This document shows, in pieces, positions 3,423 to 60,863 of a DNA stretch of 64,000 nt; the first letter of the stretch is position 1; each line of letters starts with the position of its first letter. Where the stretch lies: positions 23,808,001-23,872,000 of the forward strand of contig CM059440.1 in the NCBI GenBank assembly GCA_030390025.1, written 5' to 3'. The notes under the pieces are model-generated. The model saw only the letters and a program-made list of their open reading frames with translations, ran no database searches and had not been told where the DNA came from. The translations under genes were made by a program, and so were the position numbers. This DNA is from Squalus acanthias (lineage: Eukaryota).

Positions 3423-4274
3423 CTACAAATTGCCAATGATCTAACAGTGCTGGGGTCTGACAGCAAATATTTTCACCAAATTTATTCAAATTCAAGTATA
3501 ATGGACAGGCACTTCTGAGAATCTGGGGAATGAGTGTCAGAATGAGGAGCTGCTGCACGCATCATGTTTGTTGTAATGAGAGATTGGACCAATAGGTGAT
3601 TGGTGCATATACGCTGTGAAAACCTTAGAGTTAATTAACTAATATAATTTAATATTGGCCTGAAATAATATTTAATAAAGAGATTGATAACATCAGTGTA
3701 TTAGAAGTGAACTATCAACAAAAAGAGATCACTGGGTTCTCTGTCACCCCATGTTTTCCTATTCCATTGATTCTTACTTGATTTCTGAGTCACTTTGATC
3801 CCTGATCTGTGCTGCGTTAACTAATCTCAGTTAGGATTCTACAGTTAGCCTTGGTGCCCTGGGTTAAGAAGCGGGGAAATCAGGCACGGTTCCTAATCAC
3901 TCATCAGCAACCTCTGCTGGAAATTGCATTTCTGTAATGGTTTATCACATCACCAGGATATCCCAAAGTGCTTCACACCCAATTAGTTTTGAAGTGTGAT
4001 CACTGCTGTCATGTAGGGAAGTATTGTGAATGTCAGGGGACAACCGGATCGGGCTTGACTGTAATACTCCCGTTTGAATATTCTGCTGACACACTGTCTA
4101 GGCTCACATGAGGAATGACCACTTGGGTAAGGAACAAGCTATACACCATGAATTGGTGTTTTCTGAAGAGGACTGGAGGTGCTAGGGTACAAAAGATCCT
4201 TTGACATCATAAATTTATGGCCTGAAAGCAGAGAGTTCCTGTTTACAAAAGATGTGTGACAACATTGAATCTGA

Positions 4275-6765: not shown

Positions 6766-7200
6766 GAGAAATTACATCTAGTTCTCTCTGTGTATAGTAT
6801 CAGGAATGGGTAAGTGTGGACAATGGAGGAAATGTTACATTAAAGAACGAGAAAAAGACACTTTCTACCCACTGGGCTTTTCTCGGCTCCCTCTGCGGCT
6901 CTGTACTTTCCCTATTCCCATTTTTTAATGGTGGATCGCTGGATATTACTGAGCGACCAGGCTGGAATGGGTAATGGGCAGAGTGTCCTTTATAAACTGG
7001 TTTTACCTGACCTATCAATGTGAGTTATTAATATATCCGGAAAGAACCTAACTGGGATTTCAAAAATTGAGCGAGTGAAATGTTAATTGTGTTTAAAACC
7101 ACTGTGGAAAAAACAGGGAATTCTCTTACACAGAAAAATGTCAGCGTCAGATTATTGTAGAATGAGGTACCACCTTGTGTCCCACAGTCCAACAGAAATC

Positions 7201-7295
7201 AGATCTGGTGAAGGGTTAAACCCCAAACATTAACCTGCCTTTTTTCTCTCAGACTTGCTGTATGTTTCCAGTGTTTTCTCTTTATTTCAGGTTCC
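7201..7295 (+). mobile_element. Degenerate Penelope terminal-repeat fragment with a mutated hammerhead core
   Basis: ctggtgaagggttaaaccccaaacattaac..ttccagtgttttctctttatttcag parallels 41895-41995. Confidence 0.45.
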
Positions 7296-7729
7296 CACGT
7301 TCCTGTGTTTCCTCCCGCTGGTTACACTTTATTCCTGTGGTTTTTACACAAGGAATTTTGTGGGTTTTTTTAAGCTTTCCGGGAGATCTGAGGAATTAAT
7401 GAATTGTAATGGCTTTCCACATAAACACTCAATATTCACTGCCAGATGTGGAGCTGAGGTTGACTCATCCACCTTCCAAGATTCCCAGCTCCATCCCTTT
7501 GGGGGGTGGGGCTGTCTCTCCAGCCCAGGAGGGGCGCTGTGTGCCCAGCCCAGGGGAGGGGGCACCATTGGCTGCAACTATGTGGAGCCTTGTCTCTAAT
7601 CCAAAAGGGAGCATTGTAGGGTCCGCTGTCTCCAGTCCATTGAAGGCCCCGCTATCTCTAGTCCATGGGGGACAAGAGTCTACAGTCCATTGAGTGATAT
7701 CTGACTCTACCCCTTGGAGGGCGATATCT

Positions 7730-19295: not shown

Positions 19296-19807
19296 CTGTA
19301 ATACAAACCATGGCACATCTTTAATTCAGTATTTCAAATTTTTAGGATTGATTTTTTTTTAATTTATTGCCTTTTAGAAACCCAGGTGAACAGCCAAGGT
19401 CCGCAGTGCAGGAGAGTAGAAAGGGTGAAAAGAGGAGGAGATAAGAGGAGGTAAATCAGGACGTGATGATTAGGCAACTCCAAGTTCGGGTTTTAAAAGG
19501 CTGCAGATTGCAGGAGGATGGGAAGACTGAGTGAGGCGAGGAGTTCCACAGTTTTGAGGTCCTGGTAAAGAATGAGTGAGAGTAGGAGACAGCGTGATGA
19601 ATCTTTATTTCCGAACAATGAGGCTGTAGCGGGGGCGGGGTCAGGAATCAGTGTGAGGGATGGGATATTTGGAGCTTAGGAGGAACAACAGAGGAAAGGT
19701 CAGAGGGGTGCTGACCATAAAATGGAGAGATATGAAAGAGTGCAATGTAGAAAATGTTTGAGTTTGTAGATGTAGATCAGGTAGGAGAGACTTAGAGGAA
19801 GGATAGG

Positions 19808-20911
19808 TTGCGTATAACCAGACAGGGAGGCTGCGCGTAATCAGACAGGGAGGCTGCGCGTAATCAGACAGGGAGGCTGCGCGTAATCAGACAGGGAGGC
19901 TGCACGTAATCAGACAGGGAGGCTGCGTATAACCAGACAGGGAGGCTGCGTATAACCAGACAGGGAGGCTGCGCGTAACCAGTCAGGGAGGCTGCGTATA
20001 ACCAGTCAGGGAGGCTGCGTATAACCAGACAGGGAGGCTGCGCGTAACCAGTCAGGGAGGCTGCGTATAACCAGTCAGGGAGGCTGCGTATAACCAGACA
20101 GGGAGGCTGCGCGTAACCAGTCAGGGAGGCTGCGCGTAATCAGACAGGGAGGCTGCGTATAACCAGACAGGGAGGCTGCGCGTAACCAGTCAGGGAGGCT
20201 GCGCGTAACCAGACAGGGAGGCTGCGTATAACCAGACAGGGAGGCTGCGTATAATCAGACAGGGAGGCTGCGCGTAACCAGACAGGGAGGCTGCGTATAA
20301 TCAGACAGGGAGGCTGCGCGTAATCAGACAGGGAGGCTGCGCGTAACCAGTCAGGGAGGCTGCGCGTAACCAGACAGGGAGGCTGCGTATAACCAGACAG
20401 GGAGGCTGCGTATAATCAGACAGGGAGGCTGCGCGTAACCAGACAGGGAGGCTGCGTATAATCAGACAGGGAGGCTGCGCGTAATCAGACAGGGAGGCTG
20501 CGTATAATCAGACAGGGAGGCTGCGTATAATCAGACAGGGAGGCTGCGTATAATCAGACAGGGAGGCTGCGCGTAACCAGACAGGGAGGCTGCGTATAAT
20601 CAGACAGGGAGGCTGCGTATAATCAGACAGGGAGGCTGCGTATAACCAGACAGGGAGGCTGCGTATAATCAGACAGGGAGGCTGCGCGTAATCAGACAGG
20701 GAGGCTGCGTATAATCAGACAGGGAGGCTGCGTATAACCAGACAGGGAGGCTGCGCGTAATCAGACAGGGAGGCTGCGCGTAATCAGACAGGGAGGCTGC
20801 GCGTAATCAGACAGGGAGGCTGCGCGTAATCAGTCAGGGAGGCTGCGTATAATCAGACAGGGAGGCTGCGCGTAATCAGACAGGGAGGTTGCGTATAATC
20901 AGACAGGGAGG
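19808..20911. repeat. 23-bp minisatellite (~48 copies) in the last NBL1 intron
   Basis: Unit TAA(T/C)CAG(A/T)CAGGGAGGCTGCG(CG/TA). Confidence 0.95.
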
Positions 20912-20926
20912 CAAGCAGTTACTTAC

Positions 20927-37731: not shown

Positions 37732-38950
37732 GTGTATGGTGAGGGTAGTGCAGTTGATGTAGTCTACATGGACTTCAGTAAGGCTTTTGACAAAGTTCTG
37801 CATGGGAGACTGATCAAGAAAGTAAGAGCCCATGGGATCCAGGGCAATTTGGCACATTGGATCCAAAATTGGCTTAGTGGCAGGAGGCAGAGGGTGATGG
37901 TCGAAGGTTGTTTTTGTGACTGGAAGCCTGTGTCCCGTGGTGTACCGCAGGGATCGGTGCTGGGTCCTTTGCTGTTTGTAGTGTACATTAATGATTTAGA
38001 TATGAATGTAGGAGGTATGATCAGTAAGTTTGCAGATGACACGAAAATTGGTGGAGTGGTAAATAGCGAGGAGGGAAGCCTCAGGCTACAGGACGATATA
38101 GACGGGTTGGTCAGATGTGCAGAACAGTGGCAAATGGAATTTAACCCTGAAAAGTGTGAGGTGATGCATTTTGGGAGGACTGACAAGGCAAGGGAATACA
38201 CAATGAATGGTAGGACCCTAGGAAGGACAGAGGATCAGAGGGACCTTGGTGTGCATGTACATAGACCCCTGAAGGCAGCAGGACAGGTAGATAAGGTGGT
38301 TAAGAAGGCATATGGGATACTTGCCTTCATTAGCCGAGGCATAGAATATAAGAGCAAGGAGGTTATGATGGAGCTGGATAAAATGCTAGTTGGGCCACAG
38401 CTGGAATGCTGTGTGCATTTCTGGTCACCACACTATAGGAAGGATGTGATTGCATTGGAGAGGGTGCAGAGGAGATTCACCAGGATGTTACCTGGGCTGG
38501 AGCGCTTCAGCTATGAAGAGAGACTGGACAGGCTGGGGTTGTTTTCCTTAGAGCAGAGAAGGCTGAGGGACCACCTGATTGAGGTGTATAAAATTATGAG
38601 GGGCATAGATAGGGCAGGTAGAAAGGAACTTTTCCCCTTAGTAGCGGGGTCAATAACCAGGGGGCATAGTTTCAAGGTAAGGGGCAGGAGGTTTAGAGGG
38701 GATTTGAGGAAAAACTTTTTCACCCAGAGGGTGGTTGGAATCTGGAACTCACTGCCTGAAAGGGTGGTAGAGGCAGGAACCCTCACAACATTCAAGAAGC
38801 ATTTAGATGAGCACTTGAAATGCCATAGCATACAAGGCTACGGACCAAGTGCTGGAAAATGGGATTAGAATAGATAGGGCTTGATGGCCGGTGCGGACAC
38901 GATGGGCCGAAGGGCCTCTTTCTGTGCTGTATAATTCTATGACTCTATGA
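37732..38950 (+). mobile_element. CR1 LINE, 5'-truncated, uninterrupted RT C-terminal half
   Basis: 378-aa ORF with DFSKAFDKV, GVPQGSVLGP, KFADDTK and LECCVHFWSP; the 3' UTR ends in a tandem tail (ctatgactctatga). Confidence 0.92.
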
Positions 38951-40903: not shown

Positions 40904-41890
40904 CGACAAATGCTGGATTTTGGCCCTCAGGAGGAACGCCTGATCTCACACAAACCCATGAGAGAAGGTGTTGTAAGGAGGGGGGGGCGGGGAATTAGGA
41001 GAGAGGGGGAAAAGTCAATGAGTGACTCCATCAGCAGCTCCCTGGGGTCCTTCCCAGAAGAATTACAATCAGTAATAGCCAGAGGTCATAGGTTTAAAAT
41101 CATTGGCAAAAGATCTAGAGGGGAGATGAGGAGACATTTTTTTTCACTCAGAGTTGTCAGGATCTGGAACTGCCTGAAAAGGACAGACACAAAAGGCATC
41201 AAGGGGTATGGGGAGAGAGGGGGAATATGGTATTGGGATAGAGGATCAGCCATGATCATATTGAATGGCGGAGCAGGATCGAAGGGCCTACTCCTGCTCC
41301 TATTTTTTTTCTATGTTTCAAGACAAAAAGCGGGGATGTGCAACTAAACACAACAGCCAACACAGACACGATGGGCCGACAGGCTGTAAATGTCTATGAT
41401 TGTATGATTCGAGTATCCAGGCAGCAGCACTGGCTGGGAAGGAAGGCAGTTTCCCAACTCAGGATTTTTTGACTCATCTATCTTCCCACCATTGGAAAGG
41501 CTCCAAAGACCATCCCTTCACCCCTTCCAGACACCAGACACCAGCACAGGCAGCTCCTGAGACCCAACATTAATTATGGACGGATGTCGAGTGTCTCGTC
41601 GCTTCCCTAAGGAATGAGACTTAGAATAAGGAGGGGAAATTACAGAGCAGTTACACTAAGACACTGTAGCCGCGGAGGCGTCAACGATTAAGATCTCACT
41701 GCTCAAAAAAGGGAATGGGCACAGGTGATGCTGGAAGACTGTGGCACTATCAGCCTGTGTTATCGAACAGTTTTGTGTCCACAGGGTGAGATCATCTTTT
41801 CTACAAGCGGCCGAGTTACACATTCGAGATATTTTCGTTACTGACAAGGTTTACCCTGGCCTTAAATCTATTTGATTTCCAGCTCTTCCC

Positions 41891-41927
41891 AGTTCTGATG
41901 AAAGGTCATCGACCTGAAACGTCAACT
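41891..41927 (+). ncRNA. Minimal type I hammerhead ribozyme motif, copy 1
   Basis: AGTT-CTGATGA-A-AGGTC-ATC-GACCT-GAAA-C-GTC^AACT: stem I AGUU/AACU, core CUGAUGA, stem II AGGUC/GACCU, GAAA, palindromic ACGU stem III, GUC cleavage triplet (after 41923). Confidence 0.72.
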
Positions 41928-42297
41928 CTCTTTCTCTCTCTACGGATGCTGCCTGGCCTGCTGAGTTTTTCCAGCGTTTTCTGTTGTTATTTCGGATTTC
42001 CAGCATCTGCAGTATTTTGCTATTGTATTAGTGTTTGGTTCACTGCCACCTCTCTTCTTGGAATGCCTACCTTGAAGAAGTTCTGCTCTTCTCTTCGACG
42101 GGATTTCCGTTTGGCTCTTCAACCTTGTTCATCTTCATTGATTTCAGTTTCCCTTCTCGTGTTTGATCAGGTATCTGCCAAGACTCGGTTTCACAGCCAC
42201 ATTACTTTCCTCAGCAACTGTCCTTTGTTCCTTTATCCCCTCCCCCTTTTCCCAGCTTTACCCTGGCCTTAAATCTATTTGATTTCCAGCTCTTCCC

Positions 42298-42334
42298 AGT
42301 TCTGATGAAAGGTCATCGACCTGAAACGTCAACT
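42298..42334 (+). ncRNA. Minimal type I hammerhead ribozyme motif, copy 2
   Basis: Identical to copy 1; predicted cleavage after 42330. Confidence 0.72.
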
Positions 42335-44544
42335 CTCTTTCTCTCTCTACGGATGCTGCCTGGCCTGCTGAGTTTTTCCAGCGTTTTCTGTTGTTATTTT
42401 ACATCTGTATTAAAACTGCTCAGAACAAGTCAGAAGATGGGCAATAAAATCAGAGGCCAGCAGAGGTCCTCAGTCACGTTTTTAAACGAGAGAAATAATC
42501 TGGGGGAAAAAACCTCTCCAATCTGGTCAGTCAGGGCCGCTGCTAAAGCTGACTGAAGTCGGGCAAGCGGAATCTAGATTTGAAACAATTCCGCTGTTTT
42601 GATACGTTATTGGATTTTTTTTAAATGACAAGAAATACGTGTGAGATTTTTGAAAACAATTGTAGGTGAAAATGAGAATTCTTACAAGTCCCTAAAAAGT
42701 AAAACAAAGTACAATCAATTTCAGCAAAGTAGCAGAAAGGGGAAACCTGGGTCTAAACCAGGAGGGGAAAACGGTTCAAATGTGTTAACCCAGCGGAGGT
42801 GTTTGAGTGTGTTTGTTTATTTGGTAGTTTAATAACAGGCGAGGGAACCCAAGCTAAAAGAAAGCGAGACTCAACAACTATCGATGGCCAGGGTTATTGG
42901 AGATAGTGGGCTGGACGGTCCTTTGTAACATTAAAAACAAGTTCAAAAACAGCTCGACACGATCGGTACAAAAGCCCGTCTTCCTATTTGGTGTCTGTTT
43001 TTTTTAAACTGAGTGTCGAATCCATGTTACAAAAAAAACAAATCAGACTTGAGACTCCTGACAAATGTAAATCGCCATTGTGTAAATAAATCTCAGTCTA
43101 CTTTCAGGAGTTAACCGCTAACAAAAAGCATTAGTTTGTTACAGCCGAAAATAACAAAAAAATCAGGATTGGTCAGTGGGCGGCGGGCGAAGGCTGCTGC
43201 TCACATCATTCTCCCCGGTCACCCAGGCACTCAACCCCGGGCAGGTGTCCAGAGGTCCGACCCACCCGCCCCAGGGGGATCAGCTGATTGAAAACGGTGA
43301 GAAATGTAACCAGACATTTGCTTCGAACAGAGAATCAGACAGCTCACTCCGGACAGACCGGGGGGGCGAAACTGGGCAAGCGGCTGAAAAACACTCCCCA
43401 GCCCGGGGGGGGGGGTTGCCGGAGCTCAGTCACCAGGCAGTGAACGTGGTAAATAATAAAACCAGTGGAGTCAGAGCCTGGGACAGACTGGGTGAAGGGC
43501 AGATTAGAAAGGAGCTGGGACTCTCTGCACGACCCGGGCTCGGCACAGACACGTTCAAACCGCTTTAAAACAAACCAGATTGTTCAACAAATCCGAACGT
43601 GGTCCTTAGAAGGGAGCAGGTTTTATTTATTAAAAAAAACGAACCCAGCCCAATTTATACACCCACCACACACACACACACCTTTCTGGGACTGGGCTGG
43701 GATAACGGCAGCGGTCTGCAGGTTACCGGGAGCATCCGTCGAGAGAGAGGAGGATTGTTTTCAAAATCCCTGAAGTGAAATGTATTTTTTTTTAGCAAAC
43801 GTCAAACTTTAAGACACGGGGTGAAAGTCAGTGTTTGAACCGTTAATGTTTGCGGAGCGCAGGACCGTCCGGGGTTTAACCCCCAGATCCGAGGCTGTAG
43901 CTCGGTTCTACTTTACTGAATCTTCACTTTCTGATTTCCGGAGAGAGCTTGAGATTTCACGAAAGGAATTTTAACTCACAATGCACCCGATGCAAAAAGG
44001 AAAGCGTTCGTAGAAAAACAATTCAAATTTAAATTAATCTCAATAAATGAACGGATTGTAGAATGAGATAGGAAACAAAAAGAGAATTAAAATCTAATCT
44101 GATAGTTGGAGTTTATCATAAAACCTTCACACCAGAAACTGACACTGCTCCCGAGAAACAGACAAACACACAGTAATTTAATTAATACTTTCTGTAACAC
44201 AGCAGAAGTGTCGGTGTGTATTTCCGACAGACTCAGAGCAACAGAATCCAATAACTTCAAATATATGTTTAACTGTCGTGTGTCAGAAAACCCGCATTTT
44301 TCTGCCATTTAAGAAATCCACATTGAACTTCTTTAAAGATGAAGAATTTACGGGTGAAACCTCTCCCCCAAAATTGAAACCTCGGCTATTTAAATATTCG
44401 GGAATTCCTGATCTTTGATCACTTCAATCTCGGGTCTGGAACAGTTTAGAGCTGATGGCAGAGTCCGGGTGAAGTCCTGGGTTTCTGCCGCCGAAAGCCC
44501 CCCGGCACGGGGAATGAAGGGAGAACGGGTGGGAAAACGGGAGG

Positions 44545-46810
44545 TGGAATGAGGGAGGGGGAGCGGGAGGGGGGAAATGGGGGAGCGGGAGGGGGGAAAT
44601 GGGGGAGCGGGAGGGGGGAAATGGGGGAGCGGGAGGGGGGAAATGGGGGAGCGGGAGGGGGGAAATGGGGGAGCGGGAAGGGGGGAAATGGGGGAGCGGG
44701 AGGGGGGAAATGGGGGAGCGGGAGGGGGGAAATGGGGGAGCGGGAGGGGGGAAATGGGGGAGCGGGAGGGGGGAAATGGGGGAGCGGGAGGGGGGAAATG
44801 GGGGAGCGGGAGGGGGGAAATGGGGGAGCGGGAGGGGGGAAATGGGGGAGCGGGAGGGGGGAAATGGGGGAGCGGGAGGGGGGAAATGGGGGAGCGGGAG
44901 CGGGGAAATGGGGGGAGCGGGAGCGGGGAATGAGGGAACGGGAGGGGGAGCGGGAGGGGGAACGGGAGGGGGGGAATGAGGGAACGGGAGGGGGGGAATG
45001 AGGGAACGGGAGGGGGGGAATGAGGGAACGGGAGGGGGGGAATGAGGGAACGGGAGGGGGGGAATGAGGGAACGGGAGGGGGGGAATGAGGGAACGGGAG
45101 GGGGGGAATGAGGGAACGGGAGGGGGGGAATGAGGGAACGGGAGGGGGGGAATGAGGGAACGGGAGGGGGGGAATGAGGGAACGGGAGGGGGGGAATGAG
45201 GGAACGGGAGGGGGGGAATGAGGGAACGGGAGGGGGGGAATGAGGGAACGGGAGGGGGGGAATGAGGGAACGGGAGGGGGGAATGAGGGAACGGGAGGGG
45301 GGGAATGAGGGAACGGGAGGGGGGGAATGAGGGAACGGGAGGGGGGGAATGAGGGAACGGGAGGGGGGGAATGAGGGAACGGGAGGGGGGGAATGAGGGA
45401 ACGGGAGGGGGGGAATGAGGGAACGGGAGGGGGGGAATGAGGGAACGGGAGGGGGGGAATGAGGGAACGGGAGGGGGGGAATGAGGGAACGGGAGGGGGG
45501 GAATGAGGGAACGGGAGGGGGGGAATGAGGGAACGGGAGGGGGGGAATGAGGGAACGGGAGGGGGGGAATGAGGGAACGGGAGGGGGGGAATGAGGGAAC
45601 GGGAGGGGGGGAATGAGGGAACGGGAGGGGGGGAATGAGGGAACGGGAGGGGGGGAATGAGGGAACGGGAGGGGGGGAATGAGGGAACGGGAGGGGGGGA
45701 ATGAGGGAACGGGAGGGGGGGAATGAGGGAACGGGAGGGGGGGAATGAGGGAACGGGAGGGGGGGAATGAGGGAACGGGAGGGGGGGAATGAGGGAACGG
45801 GAGGGGGGGAATGAGGGAACGGGAGGGGGGGAATGAGGGAACGGGAGGGGGGGAATGAGGGAACGGGAGGGGGGGAATGAGGGAACGGGAGGGGGGGAAT
45901 GAGGGAACGGGAGGGGGGGAATGAGGGAACGGGAGGGGGGGAATGAGGGAACGGGAGGGGGGGAATGAGGGAACGGGAGGGGGGGAATGAGGGAACGGGA
46001 GGGGGGGAATGAGGGAACGGGAGGGGGGGAATGAGGGAACGGGAGGGGGGGAATGAGGGAACGGGAGGGGGGGAATGAGGGAACGGGAGGGGGGGAATGA
46101 GGGAACGGGAGGGGGGGAATGAGGGAACGGGAGGGGGGGAATGAGGGAACGGGAGGGGGGGAATGAGGGAACGGGAGGGGGGAATGAGGGAACGGGAGGG
46201 GGGGAATGAGGGAACGGGAGGGGGGGAATGAGGGAACGGGAGGGGGGGAATGAGGGAACGGAGGGGGGGAATGAGGGAACGGGAGGGGGGGAATGAGGGA
46301 ACGGGAGGGGGGGAATGAGGGAACGGGAGGGGGGGAATGAGGGAACGGGAGGGGGGGAATGAGGGAACGGGAGGGGGGGAATGAGGGAACGGGAGGGGGG
46401 GGAATGAGGGAACGGGAGGGGGGAATGAGGGAACGGGTGGGGGGGACGGGTGAGGGAACGGGTGGGGGGACGGGTGAGGGAACGGGTGGGGGGGACGGGT
46501 GAGGGAACGGGTGGGGGGGACGGGTGAGGGAACGGGTGGGGGGGACGGGTGAGGGAACGGGTGGGGGGGACGGGTGGGGGGGACGGGTGAGGGAACGGGT
46601 GAGGGGGACGGGTGGGGGGGACGGGTGGGGGGGACGGGTGAGGGAACGGGTGGGGGGGACGGGTGAGGGAACGGGTGGGGGGGACGGGTGGGGGAATTGG
46701 GGGGGTGGAATGGGTGGGGGAATTGGGGGGGGGGTGGAATGGGGGAATGGGAGGGGGAATTGGGGGGGAAACGGGAGGGGGAATTGGGGGGGGAAACGGG
46801 AGGGGGGACT
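44545..46810. repeat. Compound G-rich minisatellite (22-bp, 22-bp and ~25-bp domains)
   Basis: GGGAGCGGGAGGGGGGAAATGG (~44558-44910), GAGGGAACGGGAGGGGGGGAAT (~44930-46430) and GGGTGAGGGAACGGGTGGGGGGGAC (~46430-46690). Confidence 0.95.
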
Positions 46811-47640
46811 GGCGAGTCTCTGCTCGGAATTTCTCCCGTTTTGAGCCCAAATCCTCCTCACTTTCCCCGCGGACATTAACTTCAGTCCCCGCTCACCTCC
46901 CGCCTACTCTCGGGCTGTCACTGGCCGTTCCAGAGCGGGGGGGGATTCGGGGAGACCGACAGGGAACAGCCGCCCATTCAACACCCGGGGACCGGGGCAA
47001 CAAGAGTCCCGGAGCTCGGTAAAGCTCAGCCCGCTGACCCTCCCCTGGCTCCCCCGGGCCGACCCCGGCCCCACTCTTCGGCTCCTGGTCCCTGGGTCTG
47101 TCCCGCCAGCCGCAGGCTCCAACAAAGCCCGGGGAGCCGACAATCGGCTCCCACTCCCAATAAAGCCGACACTCGGCGAGAAAGAGCCGGGCTCCAAGCG
47201 GAGACTCACCCGCCGCCGCCGCTCACCGTCTGCCGTGACTGCGAGTGGGGGGCTCGGAGCCCCAGCCCAGCCAGCAGACATCTTTTTAAATGACATTTTA
47301 TCACCAGTTTTTTGTTGTTGTTACCTTTTAATCAGCAAAACGTTGTCCAGTGTTGGGATCTCCATTATTACAGAGAAAAAAAAGCTCCTTCGGATATGGA
47401 GAGGCTGTTTCTAATGAAAGGGGGAGGACGGCGAGTGTGAGCAGAGCAGAAACCCGCGGCTCTCAATCTCAGATTCAAGCGAGAAAATCGGTGAAGTTTT
47501 TCGTAAAAGTCAAGGAGGCGAGGGCTCGGAGCCGCGCTCTTCAATGGGGACACAAGTTGCCCACAGTCAGGGGACAGTCCCTGCCCTGTACCTGGGCTGG
47601 GGAAGGCACGGTGATAGTTGGTCGGGCACCTGTATTTAAC
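46810..47640 (-). promoter_or_regulatory. CpG island; probable NBL1 promoter and non-coding first exon
   Basis: CpG-dense, repeat-free segment between MICOS10 and the NBL1 coding exons. It has two minus-strand donor consensus sites (ACG|GTGAGC after 47227; CGG|GTGAGT after 47210). The NBL1 first coding exon begins with an acceptor, so an upstream exon is needed. Confidence 0.5.
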
Positions 47641-60765: not shown

Positions 60766-60863
60766 ATTGAAACAGAGCTCTCTCCACAGATGCTGCCTGA
60801 CCTGCTGAGTGTTTCCAACATTTTCCAGCATCTGCAGTACTTTGCTATTGAAACAGAGCTCTC
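60766..60863 (+). mobile_element. Short Penelope terminal-repeat fragment flanked by a 17-bp direct repeat
   Basis: gatgctgcctgacctgctgag..ttccagcatctgcagta is homologous to 41945-42025; ATTGAAACAGAGCTCTC occurs on both sides. Confidence 0.6.

What the first reader, a model, noticed from the sequence alone, without database searches (positions are those of the whole stretch)
41850..42399. Twin hammerhead ribozymes 407 nt apart in a mini Penelope element: candidate shark retrozyme / circular RNA unit
Seen: two apparently identical 143-bp direct repeats (41850-41992, 42257-42399), each with AGTT-CTGATGA-A-AGGTC-ATC-GACCT-GAAA-CGTC^AACT. Between them are only the first ~53 codons of a Penelope-like ORF (ATG 42063, ..RFHSHITFLSNC) joined to a pyrimidine tract. 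Established: Penelope-like elements and animal non-LTR retrozymes carry minimal type I hammerheads whose palindromic, near-absent stem III requires a double-hammerhead fold, and tandem copies can release unit-length RNAs that circularise. Here stem III is just ACGU with no loop, so one copy cannot fold alone and the second copy could supply the partner. Inference: a + strand transcript (antisense to the NBL1 pre-mRNA) could self-cleave after 41923 and 42330, releasing a 407-nt monomer that might act as a non-autonomous element mobilised by a Penelope RT. Identity of the two repeats suggests a recent insertion. Caveats: stem I is only 4 bp and there is an extra A after A9.
Basis: partly seen in the sequence, partly recalled or inferred. 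Interest (0 to 1): 0.75.

Follow-up and report, generated by a model that had tools for sequence, protein, structure and literature searches.

The report
Internally deleted shark Penelope retrotransposon copy
This is a shrunken copy of a Penelope-type jumping gene in a shark-like genome that kept both end repeats, each with the tiny self-cutting RNA motif such elements normally carry; the kind is known, and nothing here shows that it cuts itself or makes circular RNA.

Summary
There are two identical 143-bp repeats 407 bp apart, each with a minimal type I hammerhead; the same descriptor found none in 100 shuffles. The 53 codons between them start a Neptune/Nematis-type Penelope-like (PLE) ORF. 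The locus is a PLE partial tandem that has lost almost its whole ORF: 5'-truncated pLTR plus ~30-nt tail, ORF start, deletion, pLTR without tail. Its 3' end and ATG spacing match a distant relative with a long open ORF (69 vs 57 nt and 139 vs 135 nt past the cut). 'Retrozyme' is not met: 1.35 units, a minimal rather than canonical hammerhead, no excess folding (z +0.38). The insert crosses the cut site twice, so its template was uncleaved or re-ligated RNA, not a free linear monomer. Whether the deletion recurs, and whether the RNA is made, cut or circularised, could not be tested. PLE-derived retrozymes averaging 363 bp are already reported in one chondrichthyan (bioRxiv 10.64898/2026.07.22.740005). 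Verdict: new member of a known kind, interest 0.25.

The parts
41850..41992 (+). Upstream pseudo-LTR, 5'-truncated; identical to the downstream copy
41891..41927 (+). Minimal type I hammerhead 1 (helix I 4 bp, extra nt after A9, helix II 5 bp closed by A10.1-U11.1, no helix III loop); predicted cut after 41923
   Evidence: consensus in PMC4209133 Fig. S3
41993..42025 (+). PLE 'tail' (29-33 nt), on the upstream pLTR only; its end coincides with the 3' end of the solo insertion at 60.8 kb
   Evidence: tail described in PMC8557442 and PMC11167929
42026..42062 (+). Rest of the PLE 5' UTR; ATG 139 nt past the cut site (135 nt in relative L001)
42063..42221 (+). First 53 codons of a Neptune/Nematis-type PLE ORF
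   Evidence: 81% to Heterodontus P0001; 32% to the N-terminus of the L001 RT ORF, pairwise E 8e-7; profile match, probability 99.3
42221..42222 (+). Deletion junction (position uncertain by about 1 nt): ORF start joined to 3' UTR; RT, endonuclease and stop codon lost
   Evidence: relatives continue C-L-x-x-x-x-I-P-x-G; no protein hit crosses the junction
42222..42256 (+). Pyrimidine-rich remnant of the PLE 3' UTR upstream of the point where the 5' copy was truncated (inferred)
   Evidence: sequence; junction-to-core 80 nt vs stop-to-core 120 nt in L001
42257..42399 (+). Downstream pseudo-LTR, ending 69 nt past the cut site, without tail; inferred start of reverse transcription
42298..42334 (+). 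Minimal type I hammerhead 2, identical; predicted cut after 42330
42398..42402 (.). Candidate 5-bp target-site duplication (other copy 41850-41854, doubling as 5' microhomology); weak, about 5% of random junction pairs share a 5-mer
60766..60863 (+). Solo 5'-truncated relative: 64-nt insert (60783-60846) ending at the tail end, in a perfect 17-bp target-site duplication that starts with ATT
7190..7320 (+). Old decayed relative with a broken hammerhead core (from 7205); helix II still fully paired with two double-sided changes

Best explanation
A short, non-coding derivative of a shark Neptune/Nematis-type Penelope-like element, inserted by the PLE protein (RT plus GIY-YIG endonuclease) supplied in trans. 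Shown: order of parts, ORF family, tail on one end only, relatives in the window. Inferred: the endonuclease nicked AT-rich DNA; reverse transcription began inside the pLTR 69 nt past the hammerhead cut site, ran 550 nt (1.35 units) through both cut sites, and joined the target at a short microhomology. Both repeats were copied from one template, hence their identity. The template was uncleaved or re-ligated RNA longer than one unit. I think it a little more likely that the 407-nt unit already existed in a short master (tandem transcript or circle) than that the deletion arose once here. The hammerheads are the ordinary pLTR min-HHRs: active only as a double hammerhead, slow, probably needing the PLE protein. 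This copy, antisense to NBL1, is most likely a passive insertion.
For: ORF family: hits in Heterodontus, Chiloscyllium, Hemiscyllium and Rhincodon. P0015 joins the same N-terminal family to an RT region 54% identical to L001. L001 has the N-terminus in one frame with DKG and YMDD motifs, and an inverted copy with CX4CxxC, a GIY-YIG-type core and a min-HHR downstream (motifs as in PMC8557442). Geometry shared with L001: 3' end 57 vs 69 nt and ATG 135 vs 139 nt past the cut. Two 3' ends 29-33 nt apart in the window match the optional 30-40-bp tail. The solo copy's 17-bp TSD starts at ATT, the cut preference of the anole PLE. Helix II: 5 of 5 pairs kept, 2 with double-sided change, in the one old relative. 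For a short master: a 550-nt cDNA is an ordinary length, whereas copies with both pLTRs are rare (PMC4209133); short PLE-derived units averaging 363 bp were found in one chondrichthyan; unnamed protein P0010 has two hammerhead-compatible repeats about 357 nt apart round a similar N-terminus.
Against: The junction is seen once. No protein among 12 hits, 1 of 13 candidates or the near-length search (0 candidates) crosses it, though protein sets are a poor test for non-coding DNA. Internal deletion is a common way PLE copies die (PMC3846280). P0010 may be a spliced gene model. The TSD is only 5 bp (chance about 5%). Pfam and PDB searches did not recognise the L001 ORFs (0 families), so the RT/EN call rests on motifs and on Atlas leads (RVT_1 on 14-15% of members in two listed clusters). 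The covariation rests on one relative (71 of 500 shuffles reach it).
Confidence: 0.55

Rival explanations
1. One-off dead remnant: a full-length PLE lost about 2.5-3 kb once, by an RT template jump during this insertion or by a later DNA deletion. No 407-nt family exists.
For: Junction seen once; no hit crosses it. Microhomology-mediated deletions disable many Penelope copies in Adineta (PMC3846280), and an internally deleted Chlamys copy is described (PMC8557442). Repeat identity leaves up to about 15 million generations for a later deletion.
Against: Needs a rare two-pLTR insertion or a long jump that spares both pLTRs and the ORF start (inference). Similar short anatomy in P0010 and short PLE-derived units in vertebrates.
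Confidence: 0.35
2. One reading: an active retrozyme. A + strand transcript of this locus self-cleaves at 41923 and 42330, and the 407-nt monomer is circularised, accumulates and is mobilised.
For: All catalytic-core positions are intact, and the swapped double-hammerhead fold is nested and possible. Size is at the upper edge of the 170-400-nt retrozyme range. A circle would template exactly a 1.35-unit insert, the model proposed in PMC4209133.
Against: Minimal, not canonical, HHR. The active fold lies about 19 kcal/mol above the free ensemble in a model that ignores core contacts; inter-copy helix III p about 0.001, core trapped in a rival helix p about 0.5, and about 0.99 at five core positions in the isolated motif. 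The circle is 51% paired, z +0.38. Published min-HHR dimers cleave poorly; the anole PLE HHR needs protein and no RNA-seq reads end at its cut site; 8 of 9 Xenopus dimers did not cleave. No evidence of + strand transcription; the upstream pLTR starts only 45 nt before the core.
Confidence: 0.08
3. Local tandem duplication or assembly artefact made the second repeat.
For: Perfect identity of the repeats.
Against: The order pLTR-tail-5'UTR-ORF start-3'UTR-pLTR is the native PLE order; the right end matches a natural PLE 3' end; the downstream unit holds 35 nt of 3' UTR that the upstream one lacks.
Confidence: 0.02

Closest known systems
EN+ Penelope-like elements, Neptune/Nematis clades, with pLTR min-HHRs (PMC4209133; PMC8557442)
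   Same: Partial tandem with 5'-truncated upstream pLTR, tail at one end only, min-HHR in each pLTR (short helix I, extra nt after A9, palindromic 15.2-16.2), ORF N-terminus of the same family.
   Different: RT and endonuclease deleted, so hammerheads are 407 nt apart instead of about 2-3.6 kb (Table S1). A10.1-U11.1 instead of the consensus G-C (A-U in at least 2 of 56 rows of Fig. S3, read by eye). No chondrichthyan among those 56 rows.
Animal non-LTR retrozymes (PMC7229834; bioRxiv 10.64898/2026.07.22.740005)
   Same: Unit of a few hundred nt bounded by type I hammerheads, GC 45%, no intact ORF, PLE-derived; chondrichthyan families average 363 bp.
   Different: 1.35 units rather than dimers to multimers; minimal rather than canonical HHR; predicted circle not highly self-paired; keeps a recognisable ORF start; no expression data.
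Poseidon of Anolis carolinensis, PAc (PMC11167929)
   Same: Two RT start sites bounding a tail just past the hammerhead; ATT target preference (solo copy); uncleaved RNA as template.
   Different: Other clade; in PAc the ORF starts inside the hammerhead, here 139 nt past the cut.
Drosophila willistoni 450-bp tandem repeats with a PLE-type HHR (PMC4209133 Fig. S5); non-autonomous Chlamys such as MRC1 (PMC8557442)
   Same: Short non-autonomous PLE-related units forming pLTRs or head-to-tail repeats.
   Different: Those are shown multi-copy families; this is one locus, and Chlamys lack canonical HHRs.

Membership tests
Penelope-like element (EN+, Neptune/Nematis type), defective copy | ORF homologous to PLE RT-GIY-YIG polyproteins | tested here: met
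   Only the N-terminal 53 codons remain; linked to RT and GIY-YIG-type motifs through P0015 and L001. Motif-level support; Pfam and PDB gave no match.
Penelope-like element (EN+, Neptune/Nematis type), defective copy | Partial tandem forming direct pseudo-LTRs | tested here: met
Penelope-like element (EN+, Neptune/Nematis type), defective copy | 30-40-bp tail at one end only | tested here: met
   29-33 nt between the two 3' ends seen in the window
Penelope-like element (EN+, Neptune/Nematis type), defective copy | Hammerhead in each pLTR | tested here: met
Penelope-like element (EN+, Neptune/Nematis type), defective copy | Intact RT and endonuclease (autonomy) | tested here: not met
   Stop after 69 codons; none of the 16 fetched proteins, RT-bearing P0015 included, matches the window outside 42015-42359
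Penelope-like element (EN+, Neptune/Nematis type), defective copy | Clade placement by RT phylogeny | not tested
   No RT at this locus; clade inferred from the CX4CxxC linker in relative L001
PLE minimal type I hammerhead | Core CUGANGA, extra nt, GAAA, palindromic N-N, UH; short helix I | tested here: met
PLE minimal type I hammerhead | G10.1-C11.1 closing pair | tested here: not met
   A-U here, G-C in the old relative. A >80% consensus trait with published exceptions, so not exclusive.
PLE minimal type I hammerhead | Self-cleavage as a dimer | not testable with these tools
   Fold possible but disfavoured in silico
Non-LTR retrozyme | Tandem repeat, dimer to multimer | tested here: not met
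   1.35 units; not reported by TRF. Arrays elsewhere in the genome untested.
Non-LTR retrozyme | Canonical type I HHR with helix III loop and loop 1-2 contacts (2020 definition) | tested here: not met
   No helix III loop, 4-bp helix I; no Rfam match. The 2026 preprint also admits minimal models.
Non-LTR retrozyme | Unit 150-450 nt, GC below 45-50%, non-coding | tested here: met
   407 nt, GC 45%
Non-LTR retrozyme | Highly self-paired circular monomer | tested here: not met
   51% paired, -72.6 kcal/mol, z +0.38, 37 of 60 shuffles as stable; linear form z 0.05
Non-LTR retrozyme | Multi-copy family of the same unit | not testable with these tools
   No shark DNA collection; protein proxies negative
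Non-LTR retrozyme | Expressed as linear and circular monomer RNA | not testable with these tools
   No RNA data

The most novel reading that the evidence does not exclude
The 407-nt unit is a multi-copy shark mini-Penelope caught midway from PLE to retrozyme. It keeps the pLTR, the tail and the first 159 nt of the ORF because these form the binding site for the PLE protein (the anole PLE needs the first 172 nt of its ORF). It is cut by a protein-assisted double hammerhead and spreads by RT rolling round a 407-nt circle, leaving 1.x-unit insertions with identical repeats. That would tie minimal PLE hammerheads to circles in vivo, which the papers read here leave open.
Probability: 0.15. Interest if true: 0.55.

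Novelty: new member of a known kind. Interest (0 to 1): 0.25.

Why it matters
As it stands this is one more defective PLE copy. Hammerheads in PLE pLTRs (2014), tandem hammerhead retrozymes (2020) and their origin from PLE ends, with a chondrichthyan included (2026 preprint), are all in print. Its value is as a compact test object. The role of minimal PLE hammerheads in vivo is called a mystery in PMC7761336, and a natural 550-nt piece with both ribozymes, the tail and the ORF start can be assayed whole. If the junction recurs genome-wide, it would be a clear intermediate in the proposed PLE-to-retrozyme path.

Tried and rejected
Rfam: no hammerhead match; curated models miss these minimal motifs, so this is no evidence against them. 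DNA relatives: none in plasmids or, by exact 27-nt pattern, in prokaryotic genome contigs, as expected for an animal element. Junction by protein proxy: nothing crosses it. Cluster look-up for P0001 could not be made. Single-sequence fold of the P0015 RT region was unusable (pLDDT 37.5) and was not searched. Pfam, NCBIfam and PDB did not name the PLE proteins (the ClpX hits are a host exon fused into P0015). Tail hairpin: predicted in both the focal and solo copies but not beyond shuffles (z -1.22 and -1.23), so not claimed. CpG content as a clock: element 0.54 vs flanks 0.56 and 0.65, uninformative beside a CpG island. Deletion by splicing: rejected, because the pyrimidine tract and AG that a splice would remove are still present and relatives show no intron there (L001 frame is open). 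The 160-codon open frame 41790-42269 has no Pfam match at E<0.1 and is taken as a by-product of the U-rich strand. The sigma-70 scan is irrelevant to a vertebrate. P0002, P0005 and P0011 (3 of 12 hits) were dropped as repeat-driven or unrelated. Lunse et al. 2017 is not held; only its title was seen. Supplements of the 2026 preprint were closed, so I could not check whether this family is in its tables. Searches for a description of this shark family found none; subscription papers, Repbase and Dfam were not searchable.
Full report
OBSERVATION. The two repeats are real and exact: 41850-41992 and 42257-42399 agree at 143 of 143 positions, 407 bp apart. Each holds a minimal type I hammerhead at the stated place: 4-bp helix I, CUGAUGA, one extra A, 5-bp helix II with a 3-nt loop, GAAA, CGU and C17, cut predicted after 41923 and 42330. 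A descriptor for this motif finds these 2 sites and no other on both strands of the window, and 0 in 100 dinucleotide shuffles of 24 kb. Rfam finds no hammerhead.

HOST. Exons of HTR6-like (about 11.4-7.7 kb), NBL1-like (22.8-19.2 kb) and MICOS10-like (62 kb) genes lie on the - strand (the gene names are recalled from motifs and come from no call). A CpG island spans 42-47.5 kb with - strand donor-like sites at 47209, 46861 and 43979, and the first NBL1 coding exon starts at a splice acceptor. So the element probably sits antisense in NBL1 intron 1 (inference). The closest named protein is from Heterodontus francisci (81%), so the host is a cartilaginous fish (inference).

THE ORF PIECE. The 69-codon frame from ATG 42063 hit 12 representatives at E<=0.001. 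Nine share the N-terminal motif; 3 were dropped as repeat-driven or unrelated. Matches stop at residue 49-54 in eight of the nine and at 61 in one. A profile of six N-termini found Chiloscyllium, Hemiscyllium and Rhincodon proteins and P0015, 6 hits among 7999 candidates scored. It also found one contig, L001, 1 of 8 pattern matches in a prokaryotic genome collection and evidently animal DNA. In L001 this N-terminus runs in one open frame of 683 codons, cut by the contig end, into DKG and YMDD motifs. An inverted neighbouring copy carries a CX4CxxC linker and a GIY-YIG-type core, the Neptune/Nematis layout described in PMC8557442 (passages). The window peptide is 32% identical to the L001 N-terminus (E 8e-7 pairwise; profile probability 99.3), and P0015's RT region is 54% identical to L001. 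Pfam and PDB name none of these proteins; the Atlas gives DUF8422 and, on a minority of members, RVT_1. The family call therefore rests on motifs and linkage.

ANATOMY. L001 also has a min-HHR 120 nt after the endonuclease stop. Its element ends 57 nt past the cut and its ATG lies 135 nt past it; here the figures are 69 and 139. So the right end at 42399 is a native PLE end, not a random break (inference). The window holds two more relatives. A 64-nt solo insert at 60783-60846 sits in a perfect 17-bp duplication starting with ATT and ends 29-33 nt further along the pLTR than the focal element does. That difference is the optional 30-40-bp tail of PLEs, which in the anole element lies between two RT start sites, with ATT the preferred cut (PMC11167929, parts 1-2 of 4). 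A decayed copy near 7.2 kb has a broken core but a fully paired helix II with 2 of 5 pairs changed on both sides (one relative only, 71 of 500 shuffles reach it). The focal element reads: truncated pLTR plus tail, 5' UTR, 53 codons, deletion, 3' UTR, pLTR without tail. A 5-bp duplication is possible but weak (about 5% by chance).

THE RIBOZYME. PMC4209133 (parts 1-2 of 4 and supplement parts 1-2 of 3) defines PLE min-HHRs by a 4-5-bp helix I, a nucleotide between 9 and 10.1, G10.1-C11.1 and a palindromic 15.2-16.2. The real departure is A10.1-U11.1, seen in at least 2 of that paper's 56 examples (read by eye; none is a chondrichthyan). In a double hammerhead, helix III forms between the copies and helix I is swapped; that fold is nested and possible, but lies about 19 kcal/mol above the free ensemble in a model blind to core contacts, with inter-copy helix III at p about 0.001 and a rival helix pairing the core with the cut site at p about 0.5. 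In the isolated motif five core positions are 98-100% paired, against 0-26% in L001's motif. At least 5 of the 56 published motifs have the same complementarity (by eye), so it may be a normal off state. Published activity is low: min-HHR dimers cut weakly, the anole motif cuts only with protein and is not needed for insertion, and 8 of 9 Xenopus dimers gave no product. One paper's title says such variants cleave as dimers (Lunse 2017; not held).

MECHANISM. The insert is 550 nt, 1.35 units, and passes through both cut sites. A cleaved linear 407-nt monomer cannot template it without a jump. The template was uncleaved tandem RNA, as found for the anole element, or a re-ligated circle, as proposed in PMC4209133; the sequence cannot tell these apart. 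One template explains the identical repeats. Their identity says little about age: 0 of 143 allows about 15 million generations at 7e-10 per site per generation (PMC10587355, passages). Whether the deletion pre-existed is the open point. For: a short master makes a two-pLTR insert easy, and P0010, an unnamed protein, has two hammerhead-compatible repeats about 357 nt apart round a similar N-terminus (11-residue two-frame match vs at most 9 in 30 shuffles; core motifs fit), though it may be a spliced gene model. Against: the junction was seen once, no protein crosses it, and deletions commonly kill Penelope copies (PMC3846280, passages). I put short master at 0.55, one-off deletion at 0.35, an active circle-making locus at 0.08.

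COMPARISON. It is a defective PLE by every feature I could test except autonomy. It works like a non-LTR retrozyme only in outline. Against the 2020 definition (PMC7229834, parts 1-4 of 6) it fits size and GC, but it is not a dimer or multimer, lacks a canonical HHR, and its circle is 51% paired with z +0.38. The 2026 preprint (parts 1-3 of 5; supplements closed) reports retrozymes in 20 of 31 vertebrates, including its one chondrichthyan (mean 363 bp), and derives them from PLE ends. I found no paper on this shark family, within an open-access library only. Also seen: PMC6765202, PMC7761336 and PMC6155905 (passages) and PMC2377424 (abstract and section 14), which places the Penelope promoter inside the pLTR; whether the truncated upstream pLTR here keeps one is unknown.

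VERDICT. Observation confirmed; interpretation partly supported. New member of a known kind; interest 0.25. The boldest reading left open, a multi-copy mini-Penelope spreading by 407-nt circles, has probability 0.15 and would merit 0.55. One genome-wide search for the junction would settle most of it.

Noticed in passing
window 60766-60863: Solo 64-nt pLTR-tail fragment in a perfect 17-bp target-site duplication that overlaps element sequence at both ends; it lacks about 19 nt of the predicted tail hairpin present in the focal copy.
   Followed up: yes
window 7190-7320: Old relative with decayed hammerhead core, about 0.4 kb past the end of the HTR6-like coding sequence; three family members in 64 kb suggest a very abundant family.
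   Followed up: partly
window 41891-41892 and 42298-42299: An acceptor-like pyrimidine-CAG ends exactly at the 5' end of helix I, as the intron end does in Drosophila virilis Penelope. Weak: the strand is pyrimidine-rich and has 4 such sites.
   Followed up: partly
window 43728-43748 (- strand): 19 of 21 nt match to the pLTR in the opposite orientation, next to a donor-like site in the CpG island (E 0.036); chance or an old fragment.
   Followed up: no
window 44559-46812: About 2 kb G-rich 22-bp minisatellite (91 copies, 97% matches) plus 12-38-bp G-rich arrays inside the CpG island, with extreme GC skew.
   Followed up: no
window 19805-20912: 23-bp minisatellite, 48 copies, in an NBL1-like intron.
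   Followed up: no
window 37732-38865 (+), 40926-40111 (-), 6839-5946 (-): Long open frames that look like LINE reverse-transcriptase fragments (CR1/L2-type by recalled motifs, not searched).
   Followed up: no
L001 3818-7049: A contig filed under a bacterial genome assembly carries an apparently animal PLE: long open RT frame, inverted 5'-truncated copy with endonuclease, and a textbook min-HHR at 3902 (- strand); probably host DNA in the assembly.
   Followed up: partly
P0010 residues 14-160: Unnamed protein with the same DNA repeat read in two frames about 357 nt apart round a PLE N-terminus, compatible with a hammerhead core: a second mini element or a spliced gene model.
   Followed up: partly
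P0001, P0013, P0015: Gene models in which PLE pieces are fused to host exons (acid phosphatase in P0013, ClpX in P0015, a zinc-finger-like end in P0001): likely annotation artefacts.
   Followed up: no
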